Of a stretch of DNA of 64,000 nt, positions 3,078-48,859 are shown one piece after another. Each line of letters begins with the position of its first letter. The first letter of the stretch is position 1. Below the pieces are notes generated by a model. The model ran no database searches, was not told the DNA's origin, and saw only the letters and a program-made list of their open reading frames with translations. The position numbers were made by a program, and so were the translations under genes. Source of the DNA: Trypanosoma brucei (taxonomy: Eukaryota); the NCBI GenBank assembly GCA_000002445.1, contig CP000066.1, positions 640,001 through 704,000 of the forward strand. Reading direction: 5' to 3'.

Positions 3078-3934
3078 TTCAGAATTCTACACTGCCTGAG
3101 TTGCTCCAACACCAGCGCAAAGAAAAATAATAAACACCTCATACATAACATATATCATACAGTTATGTGTGTTTATACTTTGTTTCAAAATATATCGTAT
3201 TGAATACAAATAGCAGACACATGACACGAAAAAATCCCATTAAGCGTTAACATGACATAAAATACCCTATTCAGATGCAACCGAACAAAAGGGTCGTATC
3301 CTTTCATTTTCTACGCATATCACTTTTGATCCAAGATACGGTTAAACAGGTGACAAACATAATGCAGTACGTACTAAAACAAAAAACACTTTTTACTTGA
3401 ATCCCTATATCAACTCACAATCGACAACACATATTCGACATTAACTAACTCCATCATTAAAATACACTCCACTCTAACACAGAAACAACCCAATGTGATG
3501 CTTAGTTACCATAACAAAGGAATACGCCTCACGTTTCACAAACATGGGTACGAAGTCATTCCACCCTAGTACACACATTTGGTCACCTCACATTAATAAC
3601 CTGTTTCTTAAACGCGTAAGGCGTTGTTTAAATTTCACGTTGTCATATAATATAATATTCCATACATAATTCTGCCTGCAGAGTCCACACCATATCGACA
3701 GCTGCCTTCATCTTACTTCCAAACAAACGCCTAAAACTCTTCTAAAGGAGTCTGGCGTAGCATAAAGATATACAATGACGCAAACACCAAAGAAGCTAGA
3801 TTGAAACACAGGTGGGGAGGAACTATCGGCATCTGGGGATGAATGACTTCATTCAAATGGGCATGCACGAATGCAGCACCTTTGAAGGGACAAAAACTCG
3901 TTTTAGAAAGAAAACTGACAAATAATTTGTACTC

Positions 3935-4591
3935 TCAGAGAAATAGGAGCAACACTGAGGAAAACACCTGGTAGATAGGTGGTTGCAGCGGCTGAGATTT
4001 GCTTGTCTGCTGTTCCGGGGGGCGAACAGAGGAAGTTCCGTTACGTTCGCTGCCAAAAGTGGAGGAGACAGTACCTTTATTTTCGGATTTGAGGTGGCCG
4101 TCATCCTTAGAGGGTGAACCATTTTCCTCCTTTTTAGGGGTCGCAGAAACCGAACTACCATTTCTCACCGGCTCTTCAGAAAGCACAGGGCCGTACTCGG
4201 ATGATGGAGGTGCCTCACCTTTGTTAGAGGCATCGTCGCGACTTGAGTCTCCACCCGCTTCCACAACTGGTGAAGCGACTTCGGGTGTTGAGAGCCCAAG
4301 GAACTCACTAACCTTTGCGGTTACACATCTGTGCGGTGAAAAGCAGGTCAATCCCCCGCCACAAACGGTACAGTTCCCCTCTGCAGGTGCGCCCGAAGGA
4401 ACCCTGTGTGCCAGGGTGCAGTTTTTCTGTGCATACGTCATGAGACGATTCTCCTCGTTTCTAGTTATACGGCTTTCAATTCCCAATACTTCCGTGCACT
4501 TACCCACATATCCAATTCTTCCCTCCCATACATTCTCACACATGGCCACACGTTGAACGAAACCGAACAGTATTATTGGTAGGCACAGCAT
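3935..4591 (-). CDS. Array copy 3 (218 aa): same family, variant type B.
   Basis: ATG at 4591. The protein is identical to copy 2. One synonymous difference was seen (gccAcaaacgg at ~4360 versus gccGcaaacgg at ~2846), which shows the copies are distinct loci. Confidence 0.8.
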   Translation of the reverse strand: MLCLPIILFGFVQRVAMCENVWEGRIGYVGKCTEVLGIESRITRNEENRLMTYAQKNCTLAHRVPSGAPAEGNCTVCGGGLTCFSPHRCVTAKVSEFLGLSTPEVASPVVEAGGDSSRDDASNKGEAPPSSEYGPVLSEEPVRNGSSVSATPKKEENGSPSKDDGHLKSENKGTVSSTFGSERNGTSSVRPPEQQTSKSQPLQPPIYQVFSSVLLLFL

Positions 4592-5448
4592 TTCAGAATT
4601 CTACACTGCCTGAGTTGCTCCAACACCAGCGCAAAGAAAAATAATAAACACCTCATACATAACATATATCATACAGTTATGTGTGTTTATACTTTGTTTC
4701 AAAATATATCGTATTGAATACAAATAGCAGACACATGACACGAAAAAATCCCATTAAGCGTTAACATGACATAAAATACCCTATTCAGATGCAACCGAAC
4801 AAAAGGGTCGTATCCTTTCGTTTTCTACACATATCACTTTTGATCCAAGATACGGTTAAACAGGTGACAAACATAATGCAGTACGTACTAAAACAAAAAA
4901 CACTTTTTACTTGAATCCCTATATCAACTCACAATCGACAACACATATTCGACATTAACTAACTCCATCATTAAAATACACTCCACTCTAACACAGCAAC
5001 AACCCAATGTGATGCTTAGTTACCATAACAAAGGAATACGCCTCACGTTTCACAAACATGGGTACGAAGTCATTCCACCCTAGTACACACATTTGGTCAC
5101 CTCACATTAATAACCTGTTTCTTAAACGCGTAAGGCGTTGTTTAAATTTCACGTTGTCATATAATATAATATTCCATACATAATTCTGCCTGCAGAGTCC
5201 ACACCATATCGACAGCTGCCTTCATCTTACTTCCAAACAAACGCCTAAAACTCTTCTAAAGGAGTCTGGCGTAGCATAAAGATATACAATGACGCAAACA
5301 CCAAAGAAGCTAGATTGAAACACAGGTGGGGAGGAACTATCGGCATCTGGGGATGAATGACTTCATTCAAATGGGCATGCACGAATGCAGCACCTTTGAA
5401 GGGACAAAAACTCGTTTTAGAAAGAAAACTGACAAATAATTTGTACTC

Positions 5449-6123
5449 TCAGAGAAATAGGAGCAACACTGGAAAAAAAACCTGGTAGATAGGTGGTTGC
5501 AGCGGCTGAGATTTGCTTTTCTGCTGTTCCGGGGGGCGAACAGAGGAAGTTCCGTTACGTTCGCTGCCAAAAGTGGAGGAGACAGTACCTTTATTTTCGG
5601 ATTTGAGGTGGCCGTCATCCTTAGAGGGTGAACCATTTTCCTCCTTTTTAGGGGTCGCAGAAACCGAACTACCATTTCTCACCGGCTCTTCAGAAAGCAC
5701 AGGGCCGTACTCGGATGATGGAGGTGCCTCACCTTTGTTAGAGGCCTCGTCGCGACTTGAGTCTCCACCCGCTTCCACAACTGGTGAAGCGACTGCGGGT
5801 GTTGGGAGCCCAAGGAACTCACTAACCTTTGCAGTGACACATCTATAATTGAAAGGACAACGCAAGGTTCCCCCGCCACAAACGGTACAGTTCCCGTCAG
5901 TGGTTGCGCCAGATGGTACGCTTCGGATGGGAGTGCAGTTCGCTTCCGCATACTTCACGAGACGATTCTCTTCTGCTACGCCCGCTGGAGCCTTAATTTT
6001 CAGCAAATCCGTACACATATCCACAACTCCAACTCGCGTTCCCCATCCCTTCCCATAAGTAGCAACAATTTGAACCAATCCCGCGAACAGGGTTAATACA
6101 CAGACACACACAGGTCTCGTCAT
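5449..6123 (-). CDS. Array copy 4, promoter-proximal (224 aa from the ATG at 6123): same family with a diverged signal peptide and Cys-rich head, and a stalk and tail identical to copy 1.
   Basis: The track ORF (5449..6210) starts at TTG. In-frame ATGs are at 6204 and 6123. The ATG at 6123 aligns with the other copies (MTRPVCVCVLTLFAGLVQIVA versus MLCLPIILFGFVQRVA). It also sits just after a coding-strand pyrimidine tract and AGs (gtttttttgcttttattgttatgttagtaaaagatta-ATG). Conserved blocks include EENRL, NCT, VPSGA, GNCTVCGGG and RCVTAKVSEFLGL. Confidence 0.75.
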   Translation of the reverse strand: MTRPVCVCVLTLFAGLVQIVATYGKGWGTRVGVVDMCTDLLKIKAPAGVAEENRLVKYAEANCTPIRSVPSGATTDGNCTVCGGGTLRCPFNYRCVTAKVSEFLGLPTPAVASPVVEAGGDSSRDEASNKGEAPPSSEYGPVLSEEPVRNGSSVSATPKKEENGSPSKDDGHLKSENKGTVSSTFGSERNGTSSVRPPEQQKSKSQPLQPPIYQVFFPVLLLFL

Positions 6124-7031
6124 TAATCTTTTACTAACATAACAATAAAAGCAAAAAAACTTCTTTGCAGAGCAATTAACTCGCTTTCTCTCATGTTTAA
6201 ACATTGTCAAGTTACCTTTTGTTTAATATACAGAGCCAGTTAACCACTCAGAAAACAACCAGTGAGTATAATCAGCGTCCACAATACTTATCCGTATGGG
6301 AAGAAATGAAATATGAAGTTACGTCTTTTAAAATCTTTATCAAAAGCAGCAGCCAAGCGACCGGAGACTCACATTTATCAAGTGCGAGTAGGGGGCATCT
6401 GTGGTTCAATAACATAAAAACACATGCAGTAACAAGTTTTCGCAGATAAATATTATGGAGTACCACCTATATAAGTCCAAGTCCACACAAAAAAAACCCA
6501 AGCAAAAGCAAATACACAGTAAAGAAATAATTACAAACACATTTGATAGCACCGTCTGTTGATAGCAAATACTTAAACAGCGAAGAAGAAAGACGTTCAA
6601 AGCATTACAAAACACATCGTGGAGCAGTTCTGTAGAAACGATTACAAATGGGAAATAACCAACTCCCACGAAACAGTACATCACTGTAGCCAGTCCATCA
6701 AGAAAAATTGGCAGCGTCTCGGCGCGTGATTCAACTCTTTTCGAACGCTAGACAGCATCCACAACACTAAGCAGTTAGGTACAAATATAGATCACTACAT
6801 AGCAAAAGCAAAATGCGGTAAGTACCGCAAAGGGGTCCCCCATCCTTACGCTGTTCTATTATTTATTTCGCTTCTTCCACTTTATTGCAGTCTACAATTA
6901 TAGGCGCTTTCTCCCATCATATATTAAAGCATAATAGCGCGAGAAAGAACAAAAGGTCATAGATTAACGTATCGAGCTAGTGTGAGGGGTGATGCTCTGA
7001 GGCAGTATTTGTATCTAGTTTAGTGACGGAT

Positions 7032-7949
7032 TTATCCGGTGATAAAGCATACAATTGCGACAAGGAGGTTCTGTATCGCTCCATATCTCACGTTGTTTCC
7101 TTTTTTGTTTTCTGGTTTGCGGTCGATTCTTCCTGTGTTTGATACAATTCCTGCACCTGCTGCAACTGTATCATCCCGTCCGCGCACTGGTTCCTCCCTT
7201 CCTGGGTCTGCATCCTGTTTCCCATTGGTCGTCGTGCCATCTTCTGCAGCATCGCGCTGGTGATCATTCACTGTACCTTTTTCTGGTGAAGATTCCCCTC
7301 GAGGGTGAGTATGCTTCCCTCCCTGAGTTGCTCCTCCCTTTTCTGGTTCCTTTCGGGTCAAGCCCTCACCTCCAGCTCCGTCCTTTTTCCCCGAAGCTCC
7401 CCGCTTCTCCCCAGCAGTTCCCCGCTTTTCCCCCGGACTTTGCTGATCTTCCTTTGGAGTTTCCTCACCTTCCCCCGAAGCTTCCTGCTCCTCCCCCTCA
7501 CTTTTGGGAGCACTGCTCGCTGTCTCTTCGTCGTCCGAACCGCTACCCTTAGTTGTGTCTGAGGGTCCCTGTTCAGACGCGGCAGACTGCTCTACCGTCT
7601 CTTCTGTAGGGACCTGTTGTGTTATACTCCGCCAGTCGGAGTCGGAGCATGTTGTGGCATTGAGTGAATCCTCGCTTGAGTCCTCGTCCGTGCAATTAAG
7701 GGTGTGCAGCCGGTGGCCGTTTCCATGAAAAATGGCGTACACTTTGAGCTTCAGCTTGAAATATCCCTGTGGTTGTCCCTTTCCGATCAGAAGCACAGGA
7801 GTGTTTGTGCAGTTGGCAGGGTGCCACTTGCCCTTCCATCTGCACAGCGCCCCTTCCGCTTCATTATGCAGACAGTCACACCTGAAAGTCACTGCTGAAG
7901 ATCCCAAAACTACACAACTTGCTAGAAACAACGCTGTAAATGTCAACAT
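7032..7949 (-). CDS. 305-aa predicted surface/secreted acidic protein with a signal peptide, a Cys-containing N-terminal domain, a long Glu/Gly/Lys/Ser/Asp-rich low-complexity region and a hydrophobic C-terminus (GPI-signal-like).
   Basis: True ATG (7947-7949). N-terminus MLTFTALFLASCVVLGSSA. Six Cys fall within the first ~100 mature residues. A short internal repeat is present (GEKRGTAGEKRGASGKKDG). C-terminus ...YGAIQNLLVAIVCFITG. A pyrimidine tract and AGs lie 5' on the coding strand (~7965-8000). Confidence 0.75.
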   Translation of the reverse strand: MLTFTALFLASCVVLGSSAVTFRCDCLHNEAEGALCRWKGKWHPANCTNTPVLLIGKGQPQGYFKLKLKVYAIFHGNGHRLHTLNCTDEDSSEDSLNATTCSDSDWRSITQQVPTEETVEQSAASEQGPSDTTKGSGSDDEETASSAPKSEGEEQEASGEGEETPKEDQQSPGEKRGTAGEKRGASGKKDGAGGEGLTRKEPEKGGATQGGKHTHPRGESSPEKGTVNDHQRDAAEDGTTTNGKQDADPGREEPVRGRDDTVAAGAGIVSNTGRIDRKPENKKGNNVRYGAIQNLLVAIVCFITG

Positions 7950-10900
7950 AGAGTGTTAGCTGCCTGTCCTCTACTTGTAAAAATCACTGAAAAAGGGATG
8001 TACTCGGTAAACACAGGGTCCACACAAACGCAAACACACGTTCCTAACAGCTTTCAATTGCACTTACACTCCCCGTTACTCCAGCAGGTTCCACTGGTCG
8101 TCAAATTTAGCAGTAAATTTATTCCTCACGAAGATAAGCTATCACCAATCCACTAATAGGCAATCGGTCACCCTTCTGGTCGACTTCTGTAGACTTACTA
8201 CCCCATAATTAGTTGAAGTTTTTGGGTAAGGCTACCTGCGCCTGAAGTTTTAGAGACCCCGGGAATTTCTAAGTGCATGCGCGAGTTGCATTGCAGCCAC
8301 ACAACCATATATGCCCCGGCGTGCCTGTAAAAAAGACAAACACGTAGTTACTTAACAAGCAGATGTGCTCGCGCACGAATGTCTCCCAGTAAAAACACAC
8401 ACAAAGGTATAACGTGAAACAACAATTCCAAGCTAACTTAGCGGATATGTATTAAGACAAAATAATTAAAGCAGTCATGGTGGAAAGAACTTGAAATATG
8501 GAACTTAAGGGAACACCGTTTCCCCCTTTTTTCTTAAAGATAAACGGTCTGACTTTCCTATTTATCTTCGTTACCGGTTACGTCATTGTCACTCTGAAGC
8601 TTTGTTTCGATTCTGCTTCCCGCTACAACGCCGGCTGTAGCAATAAACCGGCCTCCTCTTAGGCATGCTTGAGCGCTTTTCATTCCCGCTTTTGTTATTC
8701 GCCAAGAAGTGGCTTGACAGGTGTTGGAGTTTCTTTGATCCACCTCAAACGCGGGGTTTCCTTTTTTTTATTCCCTCCAAAAATACGAAGGGGCAACTCG
8801 CCTAGCGGTGATTCCACCCACAAAAGAGAAAGCACACACAACGTAAGTTAGCGTGATGAATAGGGTGTACAAAGTTAATTATACCCTTTTTCCACCTTAC
8901 GTTGCAAAGGTCAGGCATGTCAGTTAGTTAATATATTTTTCACCACCGTCGGAAAGTAATTAAGTACCACTTTAGGCAATCTTTCCCTCTATGTCCGGGG
9001 ATCAATACGACCTTTCACATCTCTCCTCGTCAACACCTTCCCCCTACTGCGCTTTAGTGAGAACAGCACCAACTCAGGTGAATCAACGAAGTAAATACCA
9101 ACAACTATTGGGGACTTGGAAATGTACCTACCTCCGTGAGCGTTACCGATCCTTCAAATCACTGGGTGTTTTTTTTTAAAAAGAGCGGCTGGAACCCATG
9201 GCCCCTCATGTCACCACAAAGCCGAATCTCAGTACTTGTGCGCCCTCATTCACACGTTTAGTTGTTATCATATTAACAGGTTCCAATAAGATGGTACCTT
9301 TCGCGTTACTCTAGGCCCGAAATCGGTTGTGGAATCATTCAGGACCTACCGCCACCGGTGGGATACCTTTCCCGACTCCAAACTTCAGGTTGCAAACTCT
9401 CCGTACCTGCAGAAAGTAGCAGCGCCCCGATAGAAAGTTAGGTTCCATCACCTCTTATCTTTAAATTTGTTTTTATTCACATGCGACGGAGTTTAACTGA
9501 CGAGGCACCAACCCATTCCTTTGTAACTTCAGGGATGATGCCGCTTTCGGCCGCCCTCTACACGACAACCTCTAATTATCCAGAGTAGCACCAATAACAT
9601 ATGCTGTTACCATTTAAAAGAGCATTCAGCATGGATGACTTCCCCCCGATGTCACTAATAATTGAGTAACGCGGTTCCGGAAGTGTTGTGTTACAACTTA
9701 TTCTCTTAGGATGGAACAAACTCCTTCGTGGTAGCACACCTTAGCGGCATCGTGAGATATTCACCACAGCACCAAGTGGGGGAGATTGATTTAGGCGCAT
9801 GAAGTATGGATGTCACTGTGCGGGTTGTACTGTTCAAAAGAGTGGGTTGTCGGCAAAAGGTGTTACAAGCCACACGATGTTACACGAGTAGACGGAAATC
9901 TAATGAGGTGCGTTCAGCTGTTGTGCGCACGTTCGGACAAGAATACGCCAAAGTGAGGCAATAATGTGCACGTGAAGACGGCACTAACGCGTAGATCGTT
10001 TGCCACTTGTATATCATATTTCCCCAGGAGTCCAGCCCAAAGTATTCGTACCGGCTGAAGGCGCACATTAATGAATTTCAACGGATGCATCAACCACAGA
10101 ACTTAGAGAAGGGCTCCGCTACCACTGGTAAATACTAAAGGAGACATTGCCCCTCTCCCAAAGACATAAAACCGTTGCCGAAGGCGCCTCAGAGAATTGC
10201 GATTATAGAGGGAGTAAGCCGGCATGCAACACGTTGGCACTCGCGCGGCTCTCGCAAAGAGTATTTACATTTTATGTGCAATGCAAACTCCTCTCCGTGC
10301 GGATACGCCTTTCACCGTCGACACCATTGGCACTGAGACTTTAGCAGTAATTGTAGAAATGTATAAGCCCCCGTATGTTGCACTTTTATTTATTGACAAT
10401 GTGATACTTCACGCAATCCCGTGCCTGCCCTCCCCATCGTTTTGTTCATTCCGTTTTTAAGCCATAACTGCGGGGCTGTGGTGACAAGGTTCAAAGCGAC
10501 CACCAATAGGAGAGGAAAGATATATACATACATATATATCATCAGGCTTCTTTTGGCCCGAATGCGCCAAGAAACTATTGAGTGTTTCCCCTCGCGTGGC
10601 AAAACCACTTCATGGGGCGATAAACTCCCGAGCTCACTCACGGGCAAAACATTCCAGTAGGAACTTGTAAAATGTGGAATGGAGGAGGAATGACTAGCAA
10701 CCGAGCGGGAAGTTTTTGGCACACTGCTTATTCCCAGCACCATGACCGCTACCGATGGCATTGGACTCACCTTGTTCTTTTACCCCAAAGAACTTTAGCA
10801 GGTACCGTACTGCTTTTATGTTTTAACACAACCGTCGTTCCCCCTATAAACTCCGTTTACCTTCACTCCTTCCGCAGGGAAGCGCAAACGAGCAAATAAC

Positions 10901-11135
10901 CCCCGGTATTTGAGCTTTGCAGATCCCTCTTACGCATATATCTTGCGATGTTGACAACTGCAGCCCGACGACGATAGCGGTTAATTGCTAGTGACACTGG
11001 CTGATTTGGTACTTTATATATATATATAAAGGAAGTTAAACGTCACCGTCTTGCCCTCCGTAACCAGATGATGATGGAGATTAACTCACTGTCAAGCAGG
11101 TTAGATGCGCAACGCAATGCGGGACTCCTCAGTTT

Positions 11136-11149
11136 AAAAAAAAAAAAAA
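11136..11149 (+). repeat. A14 homopolymer (T14 on the gene strand).
   Basis: Direct reading of 11136-11149. Confidence 0.95.
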
Positions 11150-12275
11150 GCATCTTAGTCTACCACTGAACCCGCGGCAACTTGTTCTGACAAAAACTGA
11201 CCGTGGTGTGTTTCCCGCCATTTATTAGGGGAAAATGTCACGCGAAACCAAAGTAAAGAGGGCAGAAATAACTACTCACCAACCTCTGACCTGCTGAAAA
11301 ATGGTGAGGGACAGAGAATGTAGTTGGATTACTCAGCCAGGGATAACTTGTATTTGTGCTCGCGTCATGTGTTTCAGACTAGAGGTGTCATTTGCACAGA
11401 TAGATTCACATCATTGTTCCAACAGAAAGAGTAAATAAGGGGTGACGAATGATAGGGTGCGAAGGAAGGAATAAATAACTCAGAACCAAACGAAGTATAA
11501 GTTTCGTCAAGACATTTCGTACGACAAGAGTGAAACGTTATAGTCATCAGTGGCTTCATTTGTGGTAGCGGTGGTGCCGATCACTTGTGAGCCCGCCGGT
11601 AGGATGAAGGGTCTTCCACTGAACAATAACATGGCGGCGCGCTTTTCCACACCCAACTTTGTTAGGTCACACACACACGAAACAAATCCAACTGAATGTT
11701 CCATTGCTAAGGGTACAGTAGCAAAATGGGAGGAAATAAGTGCATAATCTGCTGAAGCGCACTACCAGTCCCTGGAATGAAGGTGATTACAGATAACTAA
11801 CTTCAACATACTCGAGCATTCTTTCAGCCATTCGAGCGGCCAATAAGGGAACCGTTGCACTTCCTTCCTTTCCTCCTCCTTCCCCCTATAAATATCGCAC
11901 TGGTAGCGCCCACGGGGATGCCTCACCGTCCCTAGGCGCTGCGGCGTCCCATGAACAATATCATGAACGGTTAAACAAAAACAGAAGTAAAAAAGTGAAC
12001 TTTTTGAATACTGGTGGAGGAAGAGGAAATAACAAGTATTTATGCACGACACAAAAATGATATTGGTACAAGGTTGAAAGCAAAGTGCTTTGGAGACCCA
12101 TCGTTGGGGCGAGGAATTTCTCACCACTCCCATTCAATGTGCACGAATAAACTCCCGCCTGCTCCACACCTTTGTACGCTCATTATCTCGTTCACCTTCT
12201 CTCACATCATCATCATTCCTTTATCATCTCCCTTCATTTATGCTTGCACGACAGCAGAGGTGTCATCCCGCAGAG

Positions 12276-12310
12276 ACACACATACACATACACACACGCA
12301 CACGTATACA
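12276..12310. repeat. Imperfect (CA)n-rich simple repeat just 3' of the helicase stop.
   Basis: Direct reading: acacacatacacatacacacacgcacacgtataca. Confidence 0.85.
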
Positions 12311-12521
12311 AATATCATCTTCAGCATGCGACGGCCAACACAGTTCAGTGGGAGTGAGGAAGACGCTAATCACATTCCCTCCATTTATTCCCCCTTGTCT
12401 TTCTCCCTCAGTTTCCCCTTGCGTATTTCCCTCGTCTACTCTCGTCGCTCCCCAACTTCCATGACTAGTCAATAAAAATAGATAAAATTAAAACAAAAAC
12501 AAAAACAAGACCGACAAACCC

Positions 12522-15500
12522 TCACTTCTGCTCATTTCGCTTTGCAGCGAGCTCGCTCACCCATTTCGCCTTTTTGGCGGCGTACTTTTCCTCGGCAAAT
12601 CGCTTCTGTATTTGCAGCTGAAGTGAATTTAACCGCTCGGCTACTTTCAGCAACCTCGGAGCTCCCGCACTGTAACCTTCCTCCTGTGCTGTAAAAGATT
12701 CATCAGGCATAATGGCTGTTAGAATGCTGGCGGCCGGTAAGTGAGCCTTCCGCACCAGTCCAGCCAAATTGGAAATGAGTTTTTCGGCTCTGTTGAGCAC
12801 CGAGTAGGAAAGAGACTGTGAGAGCCCATTGAGTTCCTCCAGCATCGTGAAGCGGTAGTTCTTCCGAGTGGTGTCAATCTGCGCTTTAACGCGGAGGAAA
12901 TCAGCGAGACAGGCGTTGATGAGAACCTGCGCTCCATCATGACGCCATCCGTCTGATACATCGAGAACGGGAAGCAGACGACGGTCGCAGAAGAGATCGT
13001 CGCGGAGAGAAAAGACAACTTCATCAACAGAAGTGAAGACGTCACCGCAACCACTGATGGCCACAAACGGGTGACGAGCCTTAAACTGAACGGCAGATTC
13101 CTTGAGCGCATCCATTAGTGGGAAATCACCGGCGCCGTTGCCAAATATAAGTTGGTCGCCACCCGTTTCCACGTATGGCAAGCGGGGACCTTCACTCGAT
13201 TCCTCCTCTTCCTCCTCTTCCTGCTCCTTTCCCTTCTCTTCTTTCTCCTTCTTCTCGTCCAACCTTGACGCCAATTGGTTGTAGAAGGCAGAAAGCAGAG
13301 CAAAGAACTCTGTGTTATCAAAAGGACGTACGGAGGGGGAGCAAACATCAACGGGCGACAGTACGACACGATGTTGTGTGGCATTTGTTTTGCCCTCCCA
13401 CACCACGCTTACAGCCGGGTCAAGTAAAGCGGAACGATGAATTTCCAGCGGTACACCACATGTTTGGTGGAATGAGAAGAGATAGGCAAGCAGTTCGGCA
13501 ATAGGTTCATCCGTAACACCGCTGTGTAGCTCCTTATCGAGAGCAGGTGGATAGTGAGCCTCATGGAAAACTCCAGAGGTCAGCATGCGAATAAAGGCGA
13601 ATCCCTCATTACCCACATGGGCCTCCCTGAAAACGTACATGACATCTTGCAACAAGGAACCCAATGAAGAGGGGCGGTCCCGAAAGTGGAGTCCTTGCTT
13701 CTGCAGGAATACAAGGAGCATTTGCAGGTACTCTATGGTGAATCCCTCCATGTTACTTTGTGCAAATGCCTCCCGGCGTTGGAAAAAGAGCGGATTAACA
13801 AACAGCCTCTCGGCCAACTTCTTAACGTGCTGCTTCCATGCGTCCTCGTGCTTCAACGATCTGTGCGTGTTATAATCATATAACTGAAGTAGTCGCAACT
13901 GTGATATGGGGTCCATCTGCACATTCCCCTTAATCACCGTCATGCCGCTCGTCATAAGCCGCTTAATGCGTTGCATGGTAATCCCTAGGAAAATCAAGTG
14001 GCCGAGGTGATCGAGACCACGACGACCCGCACGACCCATCATTTGACGGAACTGCGTCGGATTTAACAGGATGTGATCACCGGCGAGTACAACAGAACGA
14101 CACGGGCTGTGAATGCCCAGCGCCAATGTTTCCGTGGAGAAAATAACACCGCAGTGGCGGCCTCGGAACAGCCTTTCCACGTGACCACGAAGTTTACCCT
14201 TCACACCGGCATGATGCATCCCAATACCCCGCTTTAAAGCGCGAAGAAGGAGGTCCTCCCCCTCACCTTCGCAGTCCTTTATTAGTTCCTTTACGACATC
14301 GGGTTCCACGCTGCACCCCGCCCCAATGAAAGTGAACTCGGGAAGAATATCTGGGACTTCGCAGACCTCCCCCTCATCTTCTTCACCTTCGTCCACATCA
14401 CGCTCGGCCCTCTCCACCTCACCATCCTCATTAGTCCTGAGGCGCTTTTGCTTCAGCGTGGACTCGCGTTGTTTGTGCCTCGCCTCCCGCTCCGCGGCCG
14501 CGCGCTCCACCTTGGCTTTGTAGAGGGCGAATTCCTCAGTTTGCCGGTAGCGCTCCTCTGCCTCTTCCAGCTGCTCCACAACGTACTTCACCAAGTCTTC
14601 ACAGTCTTCGGACTCGAAGCTGAACACAATAGCTGGGCCCATGTCCCTAGCGGAAATCTCGCGCAACACATTCAAACTTTGCTCTCGAATAAATTGCCTT
14701 GATCCCGGAAAAGCCGCCTCCGGCACCGCCTCATCTGACTCTTGCTCACTTCTACCCTCAGTGTTGGTCCTGCTTTGTTGTTGTGCGCGCTTCCTCTCCA
14801 TAGCTGCAACAGCATAGCTACCGAGCGCCGCCTCCTTCTCGTTCAACTTTTGCGCAAAGGCTGCAAGGATGGTCTCCGTTGCATGTTTCATCGTGGAGTT
14901 GAACTCTTTCACCTGTTCATCGGAGGAAATATCCGGCTTCTTCACGCTACTGTTGCTTAGCAGAACCCACTGAGCGAAGGCGTCCTTTACTTCCCGTTCA
15001 TACAGACGTGCACGCTGCTGGGTAATATACAAGTCCGCTTCAAAGTATCTCCCTGGCTCAAGGAGCTTGAGCTTCGACTGCAGCATCTGAACCCGCGGTA
15101 TCGAAGACAACTTCGGCCAAATGATGTTATCGAAGGCGGTTCGCATTTCCCCAAATAATGATACCACCTCACTGGGGACAAGGGTAATGTCAGGAGGGAA
15201 TCCCCGCTGGAGTTGGTCCGTTGTGAGGATGGACAAGGGATGTAAGTCGTGGATGTAGCGGTTCTCATATGTGGTAGTGAGTTTCTTCAAAGACGTACGC
15301 GTATCGGGAGGGGGAAGATAAATGTACTTCTTTATGTCATTCCATCGCTGAATGGTTTGGCCCTCCGATGGAAGCACGTGTACCCTATAGTCACGTGCCT
15401 TAGCGGGTGTGTCAACTGCCTGCTCCTTCAGCCGAGATTGCACGCGATTAAGCCACCCACACAGTTGCTGAGTTTCTCCCAGCGTGGCTGAAAGCGCAAC

Positions 15501-18500
15501 GAAAGGGCAGGGCAGAAGGGCAAGAATGCGTTCCCACACGTCACCATTGCCATTGCTCTCCATGGAGTGAATCTCATCGAGAATTACGTAATCGATAAGG
15601 TCAACCCATTCAGCGTACTTGGGTGAAAGCAACATGGTTTCAAATGTCTCGGGCACAGTCAGAAGTACTTGGCAGGAATCGTGGAACTGATGGTAGTCGG
15701 CCCCACCAAGAACACCATAAATATATTTACCACTATTTTTGTACTCTTTGGACCCATAGCGAGCGCAGACATCGGCCACCGCTTGATTAATCAACGCACG
15801 GGCGGGAGCAAGGTACACAACAATCCGCCTGTTGGAGCGGCGAAGAGTGTTATACATGCAGTAATACGAAACAAACGTTTTCCCAGCTGAAGTTGGGGCA
15901 CACACTACAGCACTCCCGCGATTGTCCACGATGTCAAGGAGCTCTCGCTGCCAACTGTCTGGGTTGAAGGCAACGCGGTAATCGGGTCTTCGAATGACCG
16001 GCCGCTCAAGCAGGTGTCCCATGTGAATGAGTTGCATCATTTCTGGTGTGTCGGTCAGTTGCCGCATCCGCGGGAGCATCGTTGGCCCTAACAAACTCGG
16101 TGCCTTATTTTGCCACTGAGTGATGGCACGGTCCAGCTTGCTGTAGTAATCTTCCCCAAAGTCCAGGTGCCTCAGAGCGGAGCGTACCGTGTCAAGGTCC
16201 TCTTGCGATATTTGCAGACCCTCGTTTTGGACCACCGACAAGACGTGATGGTGGCAATAAAGAAACAGCGGAATGGCTACCGATAGATCCGGTGTTTCCT
16301 TGGCCAAACGGGCACGCTCCCGCTCACTACGCCAGTTTTCGAGACGAAGTTTAACTACGAAGCATTTGATTTTCATCTGGATGTGCAGTTCCACGTAGGA
16401 CAGATACACCCACCGCAGGTACGACGCAGCTTCCGCGCTTGTTATATCCGACTTGAACTTCCGCAGCCCCTCCAGTTCTCCCCATTCTGTGCTCTTATCA
16501 CTTATGGTGGCGACGAGGTTATCAATGACTGTAAAACCGTATGGCACAGCAGTCTCCGTCTTCAAGCCCTTTTTCTTGACAGCGCGGTTCTTTGCCGAGG
16601 GATCTTCAAGCGTGAGCGCAAACTCCGCCTCACGGAGCCCACTGGAAGCCACAAGCAGGCGCCACATGGAAATCTTTAACGAAATATCGCTACCTTCACT
16701 CTTTCCAATCGTGCGATCGGGCTCGAAACCTTTGGTGAACTTTGCCTCCGCGAGTCGCTTGACTGCAGCCAAAAGTTTCTTCACAGCGTCATCACGATCT
16801 TTGTTGGTCGTACGTCCGTGCGTTGGGTCGATGCTGCGGAGGTGATCGTCCATTTGCTTCAACCAACTCTGAATGCTACTTGCGGCGTCTTTCAAATTCT
16901 TCTGCTCACGAATTTCATCATCCTTGCTACGCCCCTTCTTATTACGCTGTCCCTCGTGCTCATTATTCCCCTTTTTCTTCTTCGCGGCCGCACCCTTACC
17001 ACACCCTCCTGCACCTCCTGATCCAGCGGCGTCAGTGCTTTCTTGCTCATTATCCGAGCAAACCAAAGTTAGTGGTTGGGCGGCGAAACCACTTATTCCC
17101 ATGGACTGCGCCTGCTGGAAGGCGTTACGGACGAACTTCGTCTGAAACTCCTGCGCATGTCTTGCTTCCTTCTCAGTCATGTGAATCTTTGCCTCACGCT
17201 CCCCATCAGCATCAGTAACGTCGTTGAACTTGTCGAAAGGAGTGGTTATATCCCACCCAATAAGCTCATTGGCGGCGCCGTAGCCATCGGGTATCGGCCG
17301 CTTTGCCTTGTGTCCCTCCACCTTGAAGGTTTTGGCCAGGTGCTCTACTAACTCGTGTTTAAGGTACGGATATTCCTGAAGCTGCACAGGTTGAGGCTGA
17401 GCTAGCTCAGGGAGGCTCCTAAACGGTGTCGAGGTAATGTCAAGTGTGTCGTCGTCCATAAGATACTGCCAAGTCATGGAGATGTCCCCTACACCGTCTT
17501 CATCCAACAAATGGCTTGGCGCTTCTTCGCGTAGCAATCGCGCAACGGCGTAGAGGAGATGTCCGTCGATAATGTCGAATACCTGACCGCCTCCGTTGTC
17601 GCAGCCAGCGTGTCGAAGTGCGCTAAGGAGAAATGGTGAGATATCCGCAATAAAGTTTTGGAGCACGGCGCTGGGTAATGCCGCCTGGGCCCTGGCCTCG
17701 CAGCTCAGTATTCCCACAATGTAAGCCGTTATAACAAGGGCCTGACAAAGCTGCTGCTCTTGTTCGCTTCGTTCCTTCATGGTTAGATAGGTGCGTACTG
17801 CCGAACAGACAATCTTCTCACGGAATGTCAGGTCCTCGTTCAGCACGTTCAATGATTTTTGGGACAATGTGGGCAACGTCACTTCACGTTCGAGTGATTG
17901 AGCCAACGCGCGCACCTCCGGCTCGATTCCCAGCGAGCGCTCAAGGGTTGAGCCGTCCACGCCCATGGTGAAGACGATCATAGAGTTCTCCCTGTAGATG
18001 ACACGAGACGAGTACGCGACTTTGAGGCGGCGGGAGGCTGCCCAAAGCAGCAGACATCGAATATACATAGCCGCATCATTTCCTATTTCCTCGTCCTCAA
18101 CGATGCTCCTGTACGGCCGACGTGCAGGCACAGCGACGGCACCGCTGGAGTTGACACCTGAGGATGCATTAGTTGTTTCAACCTCCGGATTGACAAAAAA
18201 CTCTTGCAGCGGGTTCAAGGAACCCAGTTGCTCACCGTCAGACATGAAGATAAACTCCGGCTCCCACTCTTTCAGGTAGGTCTCAAAGGCCTCACTATGG
18301 AAACTTGGAAAGGTACGCACGGTGAAGCGGGAGCCGCCTGGGCACTCGCTCGCGGCTGTCAGTGCCAGTCGTAAGTTTTCCCTCATCAGCATTTTCGCAG
18401 GGGCTCGTTCCCACATCCACAACATACTATCGAAGAAAACAATGTGGAATCGGGCCCCGCGGCACTCCATATCGAAGAGCAGCTTTTGTGCATTGTACAT

Positions 18501-19034
18501 GACATGTAATGGCTGTATGAGGTCCCAGTCTACATTTGGTGGTGAGAGGGCAGACATGAACAAGGAATCACCGTCTATAAAAAACATCTCCGTTGCGGCA
18601 AGATGTGCGAACATGTCACAGAGTTCGGGCCGTGCAGTGGCGTAATGGTGCTCCACCGCCGTACGCAGCAGCTCTTCTTCAATCACAGCTCGCATCTTCC
18701 CATCCTTCTGGACGGCAGCAACAAGGAACTTCCACGCATTGCGTTCCTCTTCCTCGTGCTTCAGGGTGCCGACAATTCCACCGGCTGGTGGCTTCCCTCC
18801 GTTTCGGAACGCGGATAACACGGCGTCACATACGCGACTTAATGCGCTGCGGCGACGTGCAACTTGAGCGATTTTCCCCTCATATGAGGCATCAGCCTCT
18901 TCCTGAATCGGAATGTTTTTGGCTTCGAAAATGGCCTGTAGGGCCCCTACGGTATCCATAGGAATTTTTAAAAAATCATCATCCTTGAGACAGTTACCGA
19001 ACAGCAGGTTAAGATCCCGTTGCTGAGTAGCCAT
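12522..19034 (-). CDS. Giant (2170 aa) superfamily-2 DExH-box helicase of the Ski2-like / DDX60-like type, with a ~1000-aa N-terminal extension.
   Basis: True ATG at 19034. Ordered helicase motifs: I VVCAPTSAGKTF, Ia VVYLAPARALINQ, Ib LLTVPETFE, II VILDEIHSME, III LSATLG, V FSTETLALGIHSP, VI QMMGRAGRRGLD. An acidic insert (EGEEDEGE) sits between the RecA lobes. Confidence 0.9.
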   Translation of the reverse strand: MATQQRDLNLLFGNCLKDDDFLKIPMDTVGALQAIFEAKNIPIQEEADASYEGKIAQVARRRSALSRVCDAVLSAFRNGGKPPAGGIVGTLKHEEEERNAWKFLVAAVQKDGKMRAVIEEELLRTAVEHHYATARPELCDMFAHLAATEMFFIDGDSLFMSALSPPNVDWDLIQPLHVMYNAQKLLFDMECRGARFHIVFFDSMLWMWERAPAKMLMRENLRLALTAASECPGGSRFTVRTFPSFHSEAFETYLKEWEPEFIFMSDGEQLGSLNPLQEFFVNPEVETTNASSGVNSSGAVAVPARRPYRSIVEDEEIGNDAAMYIRCLLLWAASRRLKVAYSSRVIYRENSMIVFTMGVDGSTLERSLGIEPEVRALAQSLEREVTLPTLSQKSLNVLNEDLTFREKIVCSAVRTYLTMKERSEQEQQLCQALVITAYIVGILSCEARAQAALPSAVLQNFIADISPFLLSALRHAGCDNGGGQVFDIIDGHLLYAVARLLREEAPSHLLDEDGVGDISMTWQYLMDDDTLDITSTPFRSLPELAQPQPVQLQEYPYLKHELVEHLAKTFKVEGHKAKRPIPDGYGAANELIGWDITTPFDKFNDVTDADGEREAKIHMTEKEARHAQEFQTKFVRNAFQQAQSMGISGFAAQPLTLVCSDNEQESTDAAGSGGAGGCGKGAAAKKKKGNNEHEGQRNKKGRSKDDEIREQKNLKDAASSIQSWLKQMDDHLRSIDPTHGRTTNKDRDDAVKKLLAAVKRLAEAKFTKGFEPDRTIGKSEGSDISLKISMWRLLVASSGLREAEFALTLEDPSAKNRAVKKKGLKTETAVPYGFTVIDNLVATISDKSTEWGELEGLRKFKSDITSAEAASYLRWVYLSYVELHIQMKIKCFVVKLRLENWRSERERARLAKETPDLSVAIPLFLYCHHHVLSVVQNEGLQISQEDLDTVRSALRHLDFGEDYYSKLDRAITQWQNKAPSLLGPTMLPRMRQLTDTPEMMQLIHMGHLLERPVIRRPDYRVAFNPDSWQRELLDIVDNRGSAVVCAPTSAGKTFVSYYCMYNTLRRSNRRIVVYLAPARALINQAVADVCARYGSKEYKNSGKYIYGVLGGADYHQFHDSCQVLLTVPETFETMLLSPKYAEWVDLIDYVILDEIHSMESNGNGDVWERILALLPCPFVALSATLGETQQLCGWLNRVQSRLKEQAVDTPAKARDYRVHVLPSEGQTIQRWNDIKKYIYLPPPDTRTSLKKLTTTYENRYIHDLHPLSILTTDQLQRGFPPDITLVPSEVVSLFGEMRTAFDNIIWPKLSSIPRVQMLQSKLKLLEPGRYFEADLYITQQRARLYEREVKDAFAQWVLLSNSSVKKPDISSDEQVKEFNSTMKHATETILAAFAQKLNEKEAALGSYAVAAMERKRAQQQSRTNTEGRSEQESDEAVPEAAFPGSRQFIREQSLNVLREISARDMGPAIVFSFESEDCEDLVKYVVEQLEEAEERYRQTEEFALYKAKVERAAAEREARHKQRESTLKQKRLRTNEDGEVERAERDVDEGEEDEGEVCEVPDILPEFTFIGAGCSVEPDVVKELIKDCEGEGEDLLLRALKRGIGMHHAGVKGKLRGHVERLFRGRHCGVIFSTETLALGIHSPCRSVVLAGDHILLNPTQFRQMMGRAGRRGLDHLGHLIFLGITMQRIKRLMTSGMTVIKGNVQMDPISQLRLLQLYDYNTHRSLKHEDAWKQHVKKLAERLFVNPLFFQRREAFAQSNMEGFTIEYLQMLLVFLQKQGLHFRDRPSSLGSLLQDVMYVFREAHVGNEGFAFIRMLTSGVFHEAHYPPALDKELHSGVTDEPIAELLAYLFSFHQTCGVPLEIHRSALLDPAVSVVWEGKTNATQHRVVLSPVDVCSPSVRPFDNTEFFALLSAFYNQLASRLDEKKEKEEKGKEQEEEEEEESSEGPRLPYVETGGDQLIFGNGAGDFPLMDALKESAVQFKARHPFVAISGCGDVFTSVDEVVFSLRDDLFCDRRLLPVLDVSDGWRHDGAQVLINACLADFLRVKAQIDTTRKNYRFTMLEELNGLSQSLSYSVLNRAEKLISNLAGLVRKAHLPAASILTAIMPDESFTAQEEGYSAGAPRLLKVAERLNSLQLQIQKRFAEEKYAAKKAKWVSELAAKRNEQK

Positions 19035-19440
19035 GCACTGCCTTACTCACCTTTCACCTTCTTTCAGTTCCCTTTTTCTCCTTCCCTGAATTTTACCCTT
19101 TTCTCTTGTTCGCTATATAAAAACTATAACCTGAGATTTCTCTTTTATATGCCTGCTTTTTGTTCTGCTTCTTAGGATCACTTAGTTAGTTTATTTTTTT
19201 TATTTTATTTTTGTTCTGTGCGTGTATTTCACCTTTGTTAGCTAAATTTCTGACAGATAATGTGAGCAGAAAGAAGGAAAAAGGATTAAGCACTACGTCC
19301 ATCTCATGGTATTACCGGCGCGCAACTTAAACATTCCGCATTTTTTATGCAAAGGAATTTCAAGTATGCCGTGGATAAGCAAACACACGAACACAGGGAA
19401 GGAGAGACCGTCGCAGCATACACAACTGCGTGCGAAATGC

Positions 19441-48843: not shown

Positions 48844-48859
48844 TGTGTGTATACGTGTG

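What the first reader, a model, noticed from the sequence alone, without database searches (positions are those of the whole stretch)
7950..12521. 4.5-kb ORF desert inside an otherwise tightly packed transcription unit
Every other spacer in the window is 0.3-1.5 kb and dominated by purine/pyrimidine tracts. This one is 4.5 kb and mostly complex, mixed-composition sequence with stops in all six frames.

Four explanations are possible:
- An unusually long regulatory 3' UTR of the helicase.
- An unannotated lncRNA or small-RNA locus.
- A decayed pseudogene or degenerate retroelement.
- A head-to-tail termination and re-initiation site that gives the downstream surface-gene island its own promoter. 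This is speculative. Trypanosome surface-coat genes are sometimes transcribed by a different polymerase from their neighbours.
Basis: inference. Interest (0 to 1): 0.5.

Follow-up and report, generated by a model that had tools for sequence, protein, structure and literature searches.

The report
Non-coding gap ending a trypanosome polycistron
The 4.6-kb gene-free stretch is real non-coding DNA on Trypanosoma brucei chromosome 3, made of a short helicase 3' UTR, an already published small non-coding transcript and about 3.4 kb of unassigned spacer; it lies where the conserved gene cluster ends and a bloodstream-stage surface-gene island begins, so it is mostly explained by known biology.

Summary
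Window 7950-12521 has no ORF longer than 155 codons in any frame, and it is more than three times longer than any other spacer in the window.

The window is T. brucei TREU927 chromosome 3, 640,001-704,000. The gap lies between Tb927.3.2600 (a DDX60-like helicase) and Tb927.3.2590.

The gap has three parts:
- **Helicase 3' UTR, about 0.44 kb.** Five RNA-seq contigs end no more than 433 nt after the stop codon.
- **A published transcript.** Tb3.NT.31 (Kolev 2010) is 560 nt and trans-spliced. It maps to 11967-11407, with its splice acceptor at 11938/9, behind a pyrimidine tract I predicted independently.
- **About 3.4 kb of unique sequence.** It has no repeats, no Pfam or Rfam match, no codon periodicity, no excess RNA structure and no procyclic transcript.

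In T. cruzi the helicase is the last gene before a convergent strand switch. In T. brucei the gap precedes a lineage-specific island that is silent in procyclic forms. Tb927.3.2590 is about 48-fold higher in bloodstream forms. It is also one of about 30 transcripts raised at least 2-fold when base J is lost (Reynolds 2014).

The most likely reading is base J/H3.V "PTU-internal termination". This is inferred: I could not view the chromatin maps.

A 4.5-kb 3' UTR is refuted. A pseudogene, a retroelement or a separate promoter is unsupported.

The parts
7950..12521 (-). The whole ORF-free gap between Tb927.3.2600 and Tb927.3.2590 (chr3 647,950-652,521 in Tb927_03_v4).
   Evidence: ORF lists and stop counts. 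Coordinate offset of 640,000 from Kolev 2010 Table S2. The gap is kept at about the same size in T. equiperdum (4512 bp) and T. b. gambiense.
12085..12521 (-). Helicase (Tb927.3.2600) 3' UTR, about 0.44 kb. The poly(A) site is inferred at roughly 12060-12120.
   Evidence: Logan RNA-seq contigs L001-L004 and L011 end at window 12120, 12089, 12173, 12299 and 12470. L001 carries the spliced-leader 3' end, which shows it is RNA-derived. The median distance from poly(A) site to downstream splice site is 142 nt, IQR 123-178 (Kolev 2010). Measured from the acceptor at 11938, this predicts a poly(A) site at 12061-12116.
11973..12036 (-). Pyrimidine-rich tract (64 nt) followed by the first AG at 11940-11939. 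This is the trans-splice acceptor of Tb3.NT.31.
   Evidence: My tract and AG scan predicted an AG at 11939. Kolev 2010 Table S12 gives the Tb3.NT.31 splice site at chr3 651,939/651,938. The same scan also predicted the helicase acceptor at 19250, which is confirmed by L001 and by Kolev (659,249).
11407..11967 (-). Tb3.NT.31, a published 560-nt trans-spliced novel transcript of low abundance (1.21 in the table's abundance column; unit not stated in the passage read). It is most likely non-coding.
   Evidence: Kolev 2010 Table S7 gives chr3 651967..651407 (-). Its longest internal ORF (65 aa, 11704-11507) is frameshifted in both T. b. gambiense (+11 nt) and T. equiperdum (+1 nt). There is no period-3 signal. 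Fold z-score is +0.92.
11296..11475 (-). Cluster of pyrimidine tracts (11475-11424 and 11318-11296) with downstream AGs at 11379 and at 11294-11286, around the 3' end of Tb3.NT.31. These are possible further processing signals.
   Evidence: Sequence scan only. Use as acceptors is inferred, not shown.
7950..11406 (-). Unassigned 3.46 kb of unique, complex, ORF-free sequence. It is the candidate zone of Pol II attenuation (PTU-internal termination) and/or of bloodstream-specific non-coding RNA.
   Evidence: - Kolev 2010 lists no procyclic transcript between Tb3.NT.31 and the next entry, Tb3.NT.29, which lies beyond the island on the other strand.
- No repeats, Pfam, Rfam, period-3 signal or excess structure.
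- Few and weak pyrimidine tracts below 10500.
- Divergence between TREU927 and gambiense rises from about 3 per kb (12089-10000) to 10-19 per kb (9999-7950).
7971..7998 (-). Weak pyrimidine tract (TCCCTTTTTC) with AGs at 7987, 7974 and 7971, just upstream of the Tb927.3.2590 ATG. It is a candidate splice acceptor for that gene.
   Evidence: Sequence scan only; inferred. No procyclic transcript was detected for this gene (Kolev Table S2).
12522..19034 (-). Context: Tb927.3.2600, a DDX60-like DEAD/H helicase (2170 aa). It is the last conserved gene of the cluster.
   Evidence: Pfam domains PIN-like_DDX60, DEAD, ResIII and Helicase_C. Orthologues across trypanosomatids. Identity to the TREU927 protein.
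7032..7949 (-). Context: Tb927.3.2590, a 305-aa protein specific to T. brucei spp. with a secretory or GPI-like architecture. It is the first gene of the lineage-specific island.
   Evidence: - The only homologues are in T. brucei, gambiense and equiperdum.
- It is about 48-fold up in bloodstream versus procyclic forms.
- It rises at least 2-fold on base J loss.
- It differs by 51 substitutions per kb from gambiense.

Best explanation
The gap is non-coding DNA at the functional end of a conserved Pol II polycistron on T. brucei chromosome 3. Read 5' to 3' on the minus strand, it is a composite of three parts:

- **Helicase 3' UTR.** The helicase mRNA is polyadenylated about 0.43 kb after its stop codon.
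- **Tb3.NT.31.** Polyadenylation is coupled to a pyrimidine tract and AG acceptor at 11939. That acceptor trans-splices a 560-nt, low-abundance, non-coding transcript, Tb3.NT.31.
- **Unassigned spacer.** The remaining 3.4 kb or so of unique sequence separates the housekeeping cluster from a T. brucei-specific, bloodstream-stage surface-gene island (Tb927.3.2590, the Tb927.3.2550-2580 array, and then a VSG-related gene and an ESAG pseudogene outside the window).

The most likely mechanism is Pol II attenuation in this zone by base J and histone H3.V, the 'PTU-internal termination' of Reynolds et al. The island would then receive little transcription: none detectable in procyclic forms, and leaky in bloodstream forms. 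Loss of base J would let polymerase read through.

**Shown:**
- the anatomy of the gap;
- the two transcript boundaries;
- the absence of coding, repeat or structural signals;
- the synteny break;
- the silence of the island in procyclic forms;
- the response of Tb427.03.2590 to base J loss.

**Inferred:** that a base J/H3.V peak actually lies inside 7950-11406, and that the effect is transcriptional at this locus.
For: **Identity and coordinates**
- The helicase and the 218-aa protein are identical to TREU927 proteins.
- Kolev 2010 Table S2 places Tb927.3.2590 at 647949..647032 and Tb927.3.2550 at 641563..640907, which is the window coordinate plus 640,000.

**Helicase mRNA**
- L001 joins the spliced leader at window 19250/19249. 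This matches Kolev's site at 659,249.
- Five contigs end at 12470-12089.

**Tb3.NT.31**
- Tables S7 and S12 give the transcript at 651967..651407 and its splice site at 651,938/9.
- This matches the AG I predicted at 11939 after the tract 12036-11973.

**Non-coding nature**
- ORF65 and ORF126 are frameshifted in sister taxa.
- The ORFs that gambiense annotates in the gap are 'hypothetical protein, unlikely' and sit in singleton clusters.
- Pfam gives 0 hits.
- The period-3 signal is 0.2-2.2 in the gap against 2.4-10.2 in CDS.

**End of the conserved unit**
- In T. cruzi, convergent genes begin 466 bp after the helicase.
- T. theileri has unrelated small genes downstream of the helicase.
- Kolev Table S14 lists the unit as Tb927.3.3410 to Tb927.3.2600.
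- Tb927.3.2540-2590 are in Table S2, 'no detectable transcript'.

**Base J dependence**
- Only 30 transcripts rise genome-wide, and 18 of 27 upregulated genes lie downstream of an intra-PTU base J/H3V peak.
- Base J peaks within PTUs typically sit in spacers between ORFs.
- Sense RNA of Tb927.3.2500, near the convergent strand switch, rises from -2.56 to +0.31 log2 RPKM in the base J/H3.V double mutant.
Against: - I could not see any base J, H3.V, H4.V or Pol II occupancy data for this locus.
- Table 1 of Reynolds 2014, which says whether each gene 'fits the model', is not held as text. A third of the upregulated genes do not fit.
- Tb927.3.2590 is clearly expressed in bloodstream forms, at about 48 times the procyclic level. 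Any block is therefore leaky, and stage control could be purely post-transcriptional.
- Tb927.3.2540-2590 are not among the genes changed more than 4-fold in Schulz 2016.
- Nothing in the sequence marks a terminator.
- Contig ends from short-read assemblies are only suggestive of poly(A) sites.
- The abundance and the 3' end of Tb3.NT.31 come from procyclic cells only.
Confidence: 0.5

Rival explanations
1. Passive spacer. Pol II reads through the gap at a constant rate in all stages. The island's bloodstream specificity is set only by mRNA stability (3' UTR elements), and the base J effect on Tb427.03.2590 is indirect. On this view the gap is junk left behind when lineage-specific genes were inserted at an old strand-switch region, plus one incidental processed RNA.
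For: - Post-transcriptional control is the default in trypanosomes (established knowledge; discussed).
- Divergence in the gap is no lower than the local baseline: 3-19 per kb against 4-7 per kb. There is therefore no sign of constraint.
- No motif, repeat or structure was found.
- Reynolds 2014 concedes that several upregulated genes do not lie downstream of base J.
Against: - Every annotated gene from Tb927.3.2590 to Tb927.3.2540 lacks a detectable procyclic transcript, while the helicase and Tb3.NT.31 just upstream are detected.
- The first gene after the gap is one of only about 30 base J-responsive transcripts.
Confidence: 0.3
2. The distal 3.4 kb encodes bloodstream-form-specific processed RNA, either one or more lncRNAs or an unusually long 5' UTR of Tb927.3.2590. 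The procyclic-only 2010 survey would have missed it. This is compatible with the best explanation.
For: - T. brucei has 1428 or more mostly intergenic, trans-spliced lncRNAs.
- Pyrimidine tract and AG combinations exist at 11318-11286, 11150-11125, 10712-10664 and 10520-10476.
- Only a weak tract precedes the Tb927.3.2590 ATG.
Against: - I could retrieve no transcript evidence. No Logan contig carries a gene call from the gap.
- The lncRNA tables of Guegan 2022 are not held.
- Tracts are sparse and weak from 10500 to 8000.
Confidence: 0.25
3. The whole gap is one long regulatory 3' UTR of the helicase.
For: Multi-kilobase 3' UTRs exist in T. brucei (Kolev Table S13 lists examples over 2.5 kb). 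Alternative polyadenylation is common.
Against: - All five helicase RNA contigs stop no more than 433 nt after the stop codon.
- A mapped spliced-leader acceptor at 11938/9 begins a separate transcript.
- Several further pyrimidine tract and AG signals follow.
Confidence: 0.03
4. The gap is a decayed pseudogene (VSG-related, ESAG or an island paralogue) or a degenerate retroelement (ingi, RIME or DIRE).
For: - Sequence complexity is like that of CDS.
- The neighbourhood holds an ESAG pseudogene and a VSG-related gene.
- Synteny breaks in trypanosomatids often carry retroelements (established knowledge).
Against: - The six-frame Pfam scan found nothing at E<=1, including RT, endonuclease, VSG, ESAG and RHS families.
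- There is no period-3 signal.
- tblastn with the 305-, 218- and 253-aa island proteins and with the T. theileri downstream proteins found nothing.
- blastn and tblastx against the rest of the window and the syntenic loci found only a (TG)n microsatellite.
- There are no terminal or internal repeats.
Confidence: 0.07
5. A head-to-tail termination and re-initiation site. The distal gap would hold a promoter (Pol II, or Pol I as for VSG and procyclin units) dedicated to the surface island.
For: - The island is stage-specific and encodes surface-type proteins.
- The conserved unit ends at the helicase.
Against: - Kolev's table of putative Pol II units was built from 5'-triphosphate-enriched reads. 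It is stated to include every site marked by initiation histones, and it has no unit starting at Tb927.3.2590.
- Internal base J termination sites are mostly devoid of H2AZ, H2BV and acetylation.
- There is no tRNA and no GT-rich peak; the maximum is 0.60 against a window maximum of 0.69.
- I did not scan for Pol I promoter motifs, because I had no reliable sequence to scan with.
Confidence: 0.05

Closest known systems
[quoted passage not shown] 2014, PMC4150806; Reynolds et al. 2016, PMC4721609). The chromosome 5 example is Tb427.05.3990-4010.
   Same: [quoted passage not shown]
- It sits upstream of lineage-specific, surface or VSG-related genes.
- The first downstream gene (Tb427.03.2590) rises at least 2-fold on base J loss.
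- The location is a spacer between ORFs.
- No initiation signal has been reported there.
   Different: - Base J and H3.V occupancy was not seen for this locus.
- The silenced block is at least seven annotated genes (about 17 kb) rather than the usual last one or two.
- Tb927.3.2590 is well expressed in bloodstream forms rather than nearly silent.
Intergenic trans-spliced, polyadenylated 'novel transcripts' and lncRNAs of T. brucei (Kolev 2010 NT set; Guegan 2022 set of 1428 lncRNAs, e.g. grumpy).
   Same: Tb3.NT.31 is itself a member of the Kolev set. It is SL-capped, intergenic, on the sense strand of the cluster, 560 nt long, of low abundance and without a conserved ORF.
   Different: - It has no embedded snoRNA and no Rfam match.
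- It has no structure beyond shuffled controls.
- No function is known.
- It covers only about 12% of the gap.
Convergent strand-switch regions and synteny breaks that carry species-specific surface genes in trypanosomatids.
   Same: In T. cruzi the helicase abuts a convergent switch. In T. brucei the equivalent interval holds the gap and a T. brucei-only island before the switch near Tb927.3.2500.
   Different: Here the inserted genes keep the orientation of the upstream cluster, so the old boundary has become an internal one.
Head-to-tail termination and initiation sites, and Pol I surface-gene units (procyclin and VSG expression sites).
   Same: It forms a boundary between housekeeping genes and stage-specific surface genes.
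   Different: There is no mapped start site, no tRNA, no GT-rich element and no known Pol I promoter evidence.

Membership tests
PTU-internal termination site (base J/H3.V) | Lies inside a same-strand gene cluster, upstream of the last gene(s) before the cluster's end. | tested here: met
   All main ORFs of the window are on the minus strand. The island genes Tb927.3.2590-2540 are on the minus strand. The convergent switch is near Tb927.3.2500.
PTU-internal termination site (base J/H3.V) | A peak of base J at the site. | not testable with these tools
   No J-IP-seq track is available. Only the general statement that intra-PTU base J peaks fall in spacers between ORFs.
PTU-internal termination site (base J/H3.V) | Enrichment of H3.V (and H4.V) at the site, with no H2A.Z or H4K10ac. 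| not testable with these tools
   No ChIP-seq track is available. Kolev's unit table, which includes all histone-marked start sites, lists no start here.
PTU-internal termination site (base J/H3.V) | Downstream genes are lowly expressed and are derepressed on loss of base J and/or H3.V. | tested here: inconclusive
   [quoted passage not shown] However, whether the gene 'fits the model' is in a table that is not held. The other island genes were not found in the lists I could search (some of those searches used the wrong ID style).
PTU-internal termination site (base J/H3.V) | Nascent transcription drops at the site and reads through when base J or H3.V is removed. | not testable with these tools
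   Needs run-on or strand-specific RT-PCR data at this locus.
Trans-spliced, polyadenylated lncRNA (Tb3.NT.31) | A mapped spliced-leader acceptor preceded by a pyrimidine tract. | tested here: met
   Kolev Table S12 gives the site at 651,938/9. The tract 12036-11973 and the AG at 11939 are in the sequence.
Trans-spliced, polyadenylated lncRNA (Tb3.NT.31) | A poly(A) tail or mapped poly(A) site. | tested here: inconclusive
   Kolev states that the novel transcripts are trans-spliced and polyadenylated. Tb3.NT.31 is not in the stored part of the poly(A)-site table.
Trans-spliced, polyadenylated lncRNA (Tb3.NT.31) | Longer than 200 nt and without conserved coding potential. | tested here: met
   It is 560 nt long. 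The 65-aa ORF is frameshifted in gambiense and equiperdum. There is no period-3 signal and no Pfam hit.
Single long 3' UTR of the helicase | Continuous mRNA from the stop codon to one distal poly(A) site, with no internal SL sites. | tested here: not met
   Contigs end no more than 433 nt after the stop codon. There is an internal SL site at 11938/9.
Retroelement (ingi/RIME/DIRE) or protein pseudogene | Recognisable RT or endonuclease, or other protein homology, or repeat copies elsewhere. | tested here: not met
   Pfam six-frame scan gave 0 hits. tblastn, tblastx and blastn were negative. There is no period-3 signal. A genome-wide repeat library was not available, so non-coding RIME-like fragments are not excluded.
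Head-to-tail Pol II start site or Pol I promoter | A mapped transcription start, initiation chromatin, or associated tRNA or GT-rich sequence. | tested here: not met
   No unit starts here in Kolev Table S14. There is no tRNA and no GT-rich peak. Pol I promoter motifs were not scanned.
snoRNA or other small-RNA locus | A match to a known RNA family, tandem repetition or stable local structure. | tested here: not met
   - Rfam at gathering threshold gave 0 hits for the whole window.
- At E<=1 there was only one chance-level hit, RT-6 at E=0.28.
- There are no tandem repeats.
- Mean fold z-score is -0.01, with 1 of 112 sense-strand windows below -3.

The most novel reading that the evidence does not exclude
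The distal 3.4 kb of unique sequence is a dedicated cis-element. It would give the bloodstream-specific surface island its own stage-regulated transcriptional control. That control could be an internal, non-telomeric promoter (Pol I-type or regulated Pol II), or a developmentally switched terminator or insulator that is tight in procyclic forms and open in bloodstream forms. This would mean gene-level transcriptional regulation inside a trypanosome polycistron.
Probability: 0.08. Interest if true: 0.7.

Novelty: already known. Interest (0 to 1): 0.22.

Why it matters
Trypanosomes are thought to control almost all genes after transcription. Places where Pol II is stopped inside a polycistron, ahead of stage-specific surface genes, are the main known exception.

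This locus looks like one of them, and its first downstream gene was already used as a base J-responsive marker in 2014. The value of this work is mainly in clearing up the finding:
- the gap is not a giant 3' UTR, a hidden gene or a repeat;
- part of it is a catalogued non-coding transcript;
- the rest sits exactly at an ancestral end of the polycistron.

One feature could make it useful if the chromatin maps confirm a base J/H3.V peak. The block behind the gap is unusually long (at least seven annotated genes), and its first gene is leaky in bloodstream forms. That would make the locus a convenient model for how internal termination is tuned between life-cycle stages.

Tried and rejected
1. 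**Concatenated protein search.** I joined all 73 open segments of at least 35 aa from the gap into one 4296-aa query. It returned nothing. This is a technical false negative. Three gambiense 'hypothetical protein, unlikely' ORFs from this very region are in the collection. I therefore give no weight.
2. **Exact-product look-ups to reach RNA-seq contigs of the gap.** The 305-aa protein and the 123-aa ORF at 11762-12133 are not on record. The 123-aa ORF at 10390-10761 is found only in the gambiense genome. I obtained no transcript contigs from the gap itself.
I redid the scan with stops written as X.
4. **Supplement searches.**
   - Reynolds 2016 was searched with Tb927-style IDs and gave no hits. 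This is uninformative, because that group uses Tb427 IDs.
   - Kieft 2020 gave no hits with either ID style. It may use IDs from the 2018 assembly.
   - The Guegan 2022 lncRNA tables are not held.
5. **Negative tests on the gap.**
   - Rfam, tRNA, tandem-repeat and inverted-repeat searches.
   - GT-richness.
   - Local RNA structure.
   - Similarity to the T. cruzi, T. theileri and T. grayi loci.
6. **Polymorphism as a test of constraint.** The proximal half evolves at the local baseline and the distal half faster. This gives no evidence of selection for or against the sequence.
7. **Pol I promoter scan.** I did not attempt it. No paper I could read printed the promoter sequence, and I did not trust my memory of it.

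Full report
**Observation**

The gap is real. Between the stop codon of a 2170-aa minus-strand ORF (12522-19034) and the ATG of a 305-aa minus-strand ORF (7032-7949) there are 4572 bp. The longest ORFs with a start codon are 126 aa on the minus strand and 153 aa on the plus strand.

Each frame carries 63-85 stop codons, and the longest open stretch is 155 codons. Random sequence of this composition would give about the same (composition; my arithmetic gives about 79-86 stops per frame).

All other spacers between the main minus-strand ORFs are 421-1438 bp.
- 6-mer diversity equals that of coding sequence (0.564 against 0.562) and exceeds that of the other spacers (0.524).
- Sense-strand pyrimidine tracts cover 12% of the gap, against 15-36% for all but one of the other conserved-cluster spacers.

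**Where the window comes from**

- The 305-aa protein has homologues only in T. brucei, T. b. gambiense and T. equiperdum.
- The helicase and one 218-aa array protein are identical to T. brucei TREU927 proteins.
- Kolev et al. 2010 (PMC2936537), Table S2, gives Tb927.3.2590 at chr3 647949..647032 (-) and Tb927.3.2550 at 641563..640907 (-). Window coordinate is therefore chr3 coordinate (Tb927_03_v4) minus 640,000.

The genes are:
- the helicase, Tb927.3.2600, DDX60-like with PIN-like_DDX60, DEAD and Helicase_C domains;
- the 305-aa gene, Tb927.3.2590;
- the tandem 218-aa genes, Tb927.3.2550-2580, an array found only in T. brucei and T. b. gambiense.

Just outside the window lie a VSG-related gene (Tb927.3.2540) and an ESAG pseudogene. 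The convergent strand switch is near Tb927.3.2500.

**What is transcribed in the gap**

Public RNA-seq assemblies contain five contigs of the helicase mRNA. L001 begins with the last 15 nt of the spliced leader, joined at window 19250/19249. This is the site Kolev lists, 659,249, with a 5' UTR of 215 nt. It validates both the RNA origin of the contigs and the coordinate mapping.

The five contigs end at window 12470, 12299, 12173, 12120 and 12089, which is 52-433 nt after the stop codon. None goes further.

A scan of the sense strand for pyrimidine tracts followed by AG correctly predicted the helicase acceptor. It also predicted an acceptor at 11939, behind a 64-nt tract at 12036-11973.

Kolev's Table S12 lists exactly that site, 651,939/651,938, for a 'novel transcript', Tb3.NT.31. 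Table S7 places this transcript at 651967..651407 (-), 560 nt, with a value of 1.21 in the abundance column. In window coordinates that is 11967-11407.

Kolev reports a median of 142 nt (IQR 123-178) between a splice site and the upstream poly(A) site. This puts the helicase poly(A) site at about 12061-12116, where the two longest contigs end. The helicase 3' UTR is therefore about 0.44 kb, not 4.5 kb.

**Is anything coding or structured?** No.

- The longest ORF inside Tb3.NT.31 (65 aa) is frameshifted in gambiense (+11 nt in a TG repeat) and in T. equiperdum (+1 nt).
- The 126-aa ORF at 10770-10390 is frameshifted in T. equiperdum.
- The 123-aa ORF at 12133-11762 straddles the poly(A) and splice junction, so it lies in no single mature RNA.
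- The three ORFs annotated in the gambiense gap are 'hypothetical protein, unlikely', each a singleton cluster.
- A six-frame Pfam scan gave no family at E<=1.
- The period-3 Fourier signal is 0.2-2.2 in the gap, against 2.4-10.2 in the helicase and 3-8 in Tb927.3.2590.
- There are no tandem, direct or inverted repeats of note.
- Nothing else in the window matches except a (TG)n run, and there is no match to the T. cruzi, T. theileri or T. grayi loci.
- There is no relic of the island proteins or of the T. theileri downstream proteins.
- Rfam finds nothing at gathering threshold in the whole window, and only one chance-level hit in the gap at E<=1. There are no tRNAs.
- Local folding is no better than in shuffled sequence. 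The mean z-score is -0.01 over 112 sense-strand windows, with one window below -3. Tb3.NT.31 has z = +0.92.

**Context: an ancestral end of the cluster**

- In T. cruzi the helicase orthologue is followed after 466 bp by genes on the opposite strand.
- In T. theileri it is followed by unrelated small same-strand genes.
- The gene order upstream (Beta_helix protein, then PGAP1, then the helicase) is conserved.
- Kolev's Table S14 lists the putative Pol II unit as Tb927.3.3410 to Tb927.3.2600. The opposing unit is listed as Tb927.3.2270 to Tb927.3.2490. Genes 2500-2590 are in neither.

The last detectable procyclic RNA on this strand is therefore Tb3.NT.31.

In nanopore direct-RNA data, Tb927.3.2590 is about 48-fold higher in bloodstream than in procyclic forms. 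It sits in that list among ESAGs, ISGs and VSG-related genes. Tb927.3.2540 is also bloodstream-enriched.

**The base J link**

Reynolds et al. 2014 (PMC4150806) inhibited base J synthesis with DMOG in bloodstream forms and found only 36 transcripts changed more than 2-fold. Tb427.03.2590 is named as one of those increased at least 2-fold and confirmed by RT-qPCR.

[quoted passage not shown] A run-on at one chromosome 5 site showed premature Pol II termination relieved by base J loss. Such sites mostly lack initiation marks.

Reynolds 2016 names this 'PTU internal termination' and shows that H3.V acts with base J. Cliffe 2010 notes that base J peaks within PTUs typically fall in spacers between ORFs.

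In Schulz 2016, sense RNA of Tb927.3.2500, at the far end of the island, rises from -2.56 to +0.31 log2 RPKM in the base J/H3.V double mutant.

I could not see base J or H3.V tracks, or the table that says whether 2590 'fits the model'. Placing the termination zone inside the gap is therefore an inference. I rate it at roughly even odds.

**Polymorphism**

TREU927 and gambiense differ as follows:

| Region | Substitutions per kb |
|---|---|
| Conserved genes and spacers | 4-7 |
| Gap, 12089-10000 | about 3 |
| Gap, 9999-9000 | 10 |
| Gap, 8999-7950 | 19 |
| Tb927.3.2590 CDS | 51 |

The proximal half of the gap behaves like the conserved cluster, and the distal half like the fast-evolving island. 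There is no sign of special constraint.

**Verdict**

- a normal-length 3' UTR;
- a catalogued processed non-coding RNA;
- a lineage-specific spacer at an old polycistron boundary, which probably coincides with a base J/H3.V internal termination site controlling a bloodstream-stage surface island.

The giant-UTR reading is refuted. The pseudogene, retroelement and small-RNA readings are unsupported. The own-promoter reading has no support, though bloodstream chromatin data are needed to close it.

Novelty is low and interest is modest.

Noticed in passing
window 7032-7949: The Tb927.3.2590 CDS differs from its T. b. gambiense allele at 47 of 918 positions (51 per kb). That is about ten times the rate in neighbouring conserved genes (4-7 per kb), with no indels. 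It looks like a fast-evolving or diversifying surface protein.
   Followed up: partly
window 7950-12089: TREU927-gambiense divergence rises across the gap towards the island: about 3 per kb over 12089-10000, then 10 and 19 per kb. The evolutionary boundary between the conserved core and the variable island seems to fall inside the gap, near 10250.
   Followed up: partly
window 907-6210: There are four tandem copies (period 1514 bp) of a roughly 218-aa gene with a signal peptide and a hydrophobic tail (Tb927.3.2550-2580). The copy nearest the gap (5449-6210) has a divergent N-terminal half but an identical C-terminal half. The 305-aa gene shows no detectable similarity to them.
   Followed up: partly
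window 11050-11171; L005 6843-6909: The T. equiperdum contig does not align over about 120 bp around the T15 run and the (TA)n repeat. Identity to the window drops from 99.87% upstream of it to 98.4% downstream. This could be an assembly join or a haplotype switch.
   Followed up: no
window 11668-11690 and 12265-12300: There are (TG)n/(GT)n microsatellites on the sense strand. The first is 11 nt longer in gambiense and lies inside Tb3.NT.31. The second lies in the helicase 3' UTR and is the only part of the gap with a match elsewhere in the window, near 48850.
   Followed up: no
window 10510-10629: This is the only 120-nt window in the gap with a fold z-score below -3 (sense strand -3.18, dG -40.1; antisense -2.19). 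One such window among 112 is close to chance.
   Followed up: no
L006 16525-18148 (T. cruzi); L007 16498-21543 (T. theileri): Downstream of the helicase orthologue, T. cruzi switches strand after 466 bp. T. theileri instead has its own small same-strand ORFs (107, 284 and 392 aa) with no similarity to the T. brucei island. The spot seems to be a recurrent site of lineage-specific gene gain.
   Followed up: partly
window 12522-19034: The helicase (Tb927.3.2600) appears 15 times in a paper on RNA-DNA hybrid interacting proteins in T. brucei (PMC10639054). I did not read that paper.
   Followed up: no
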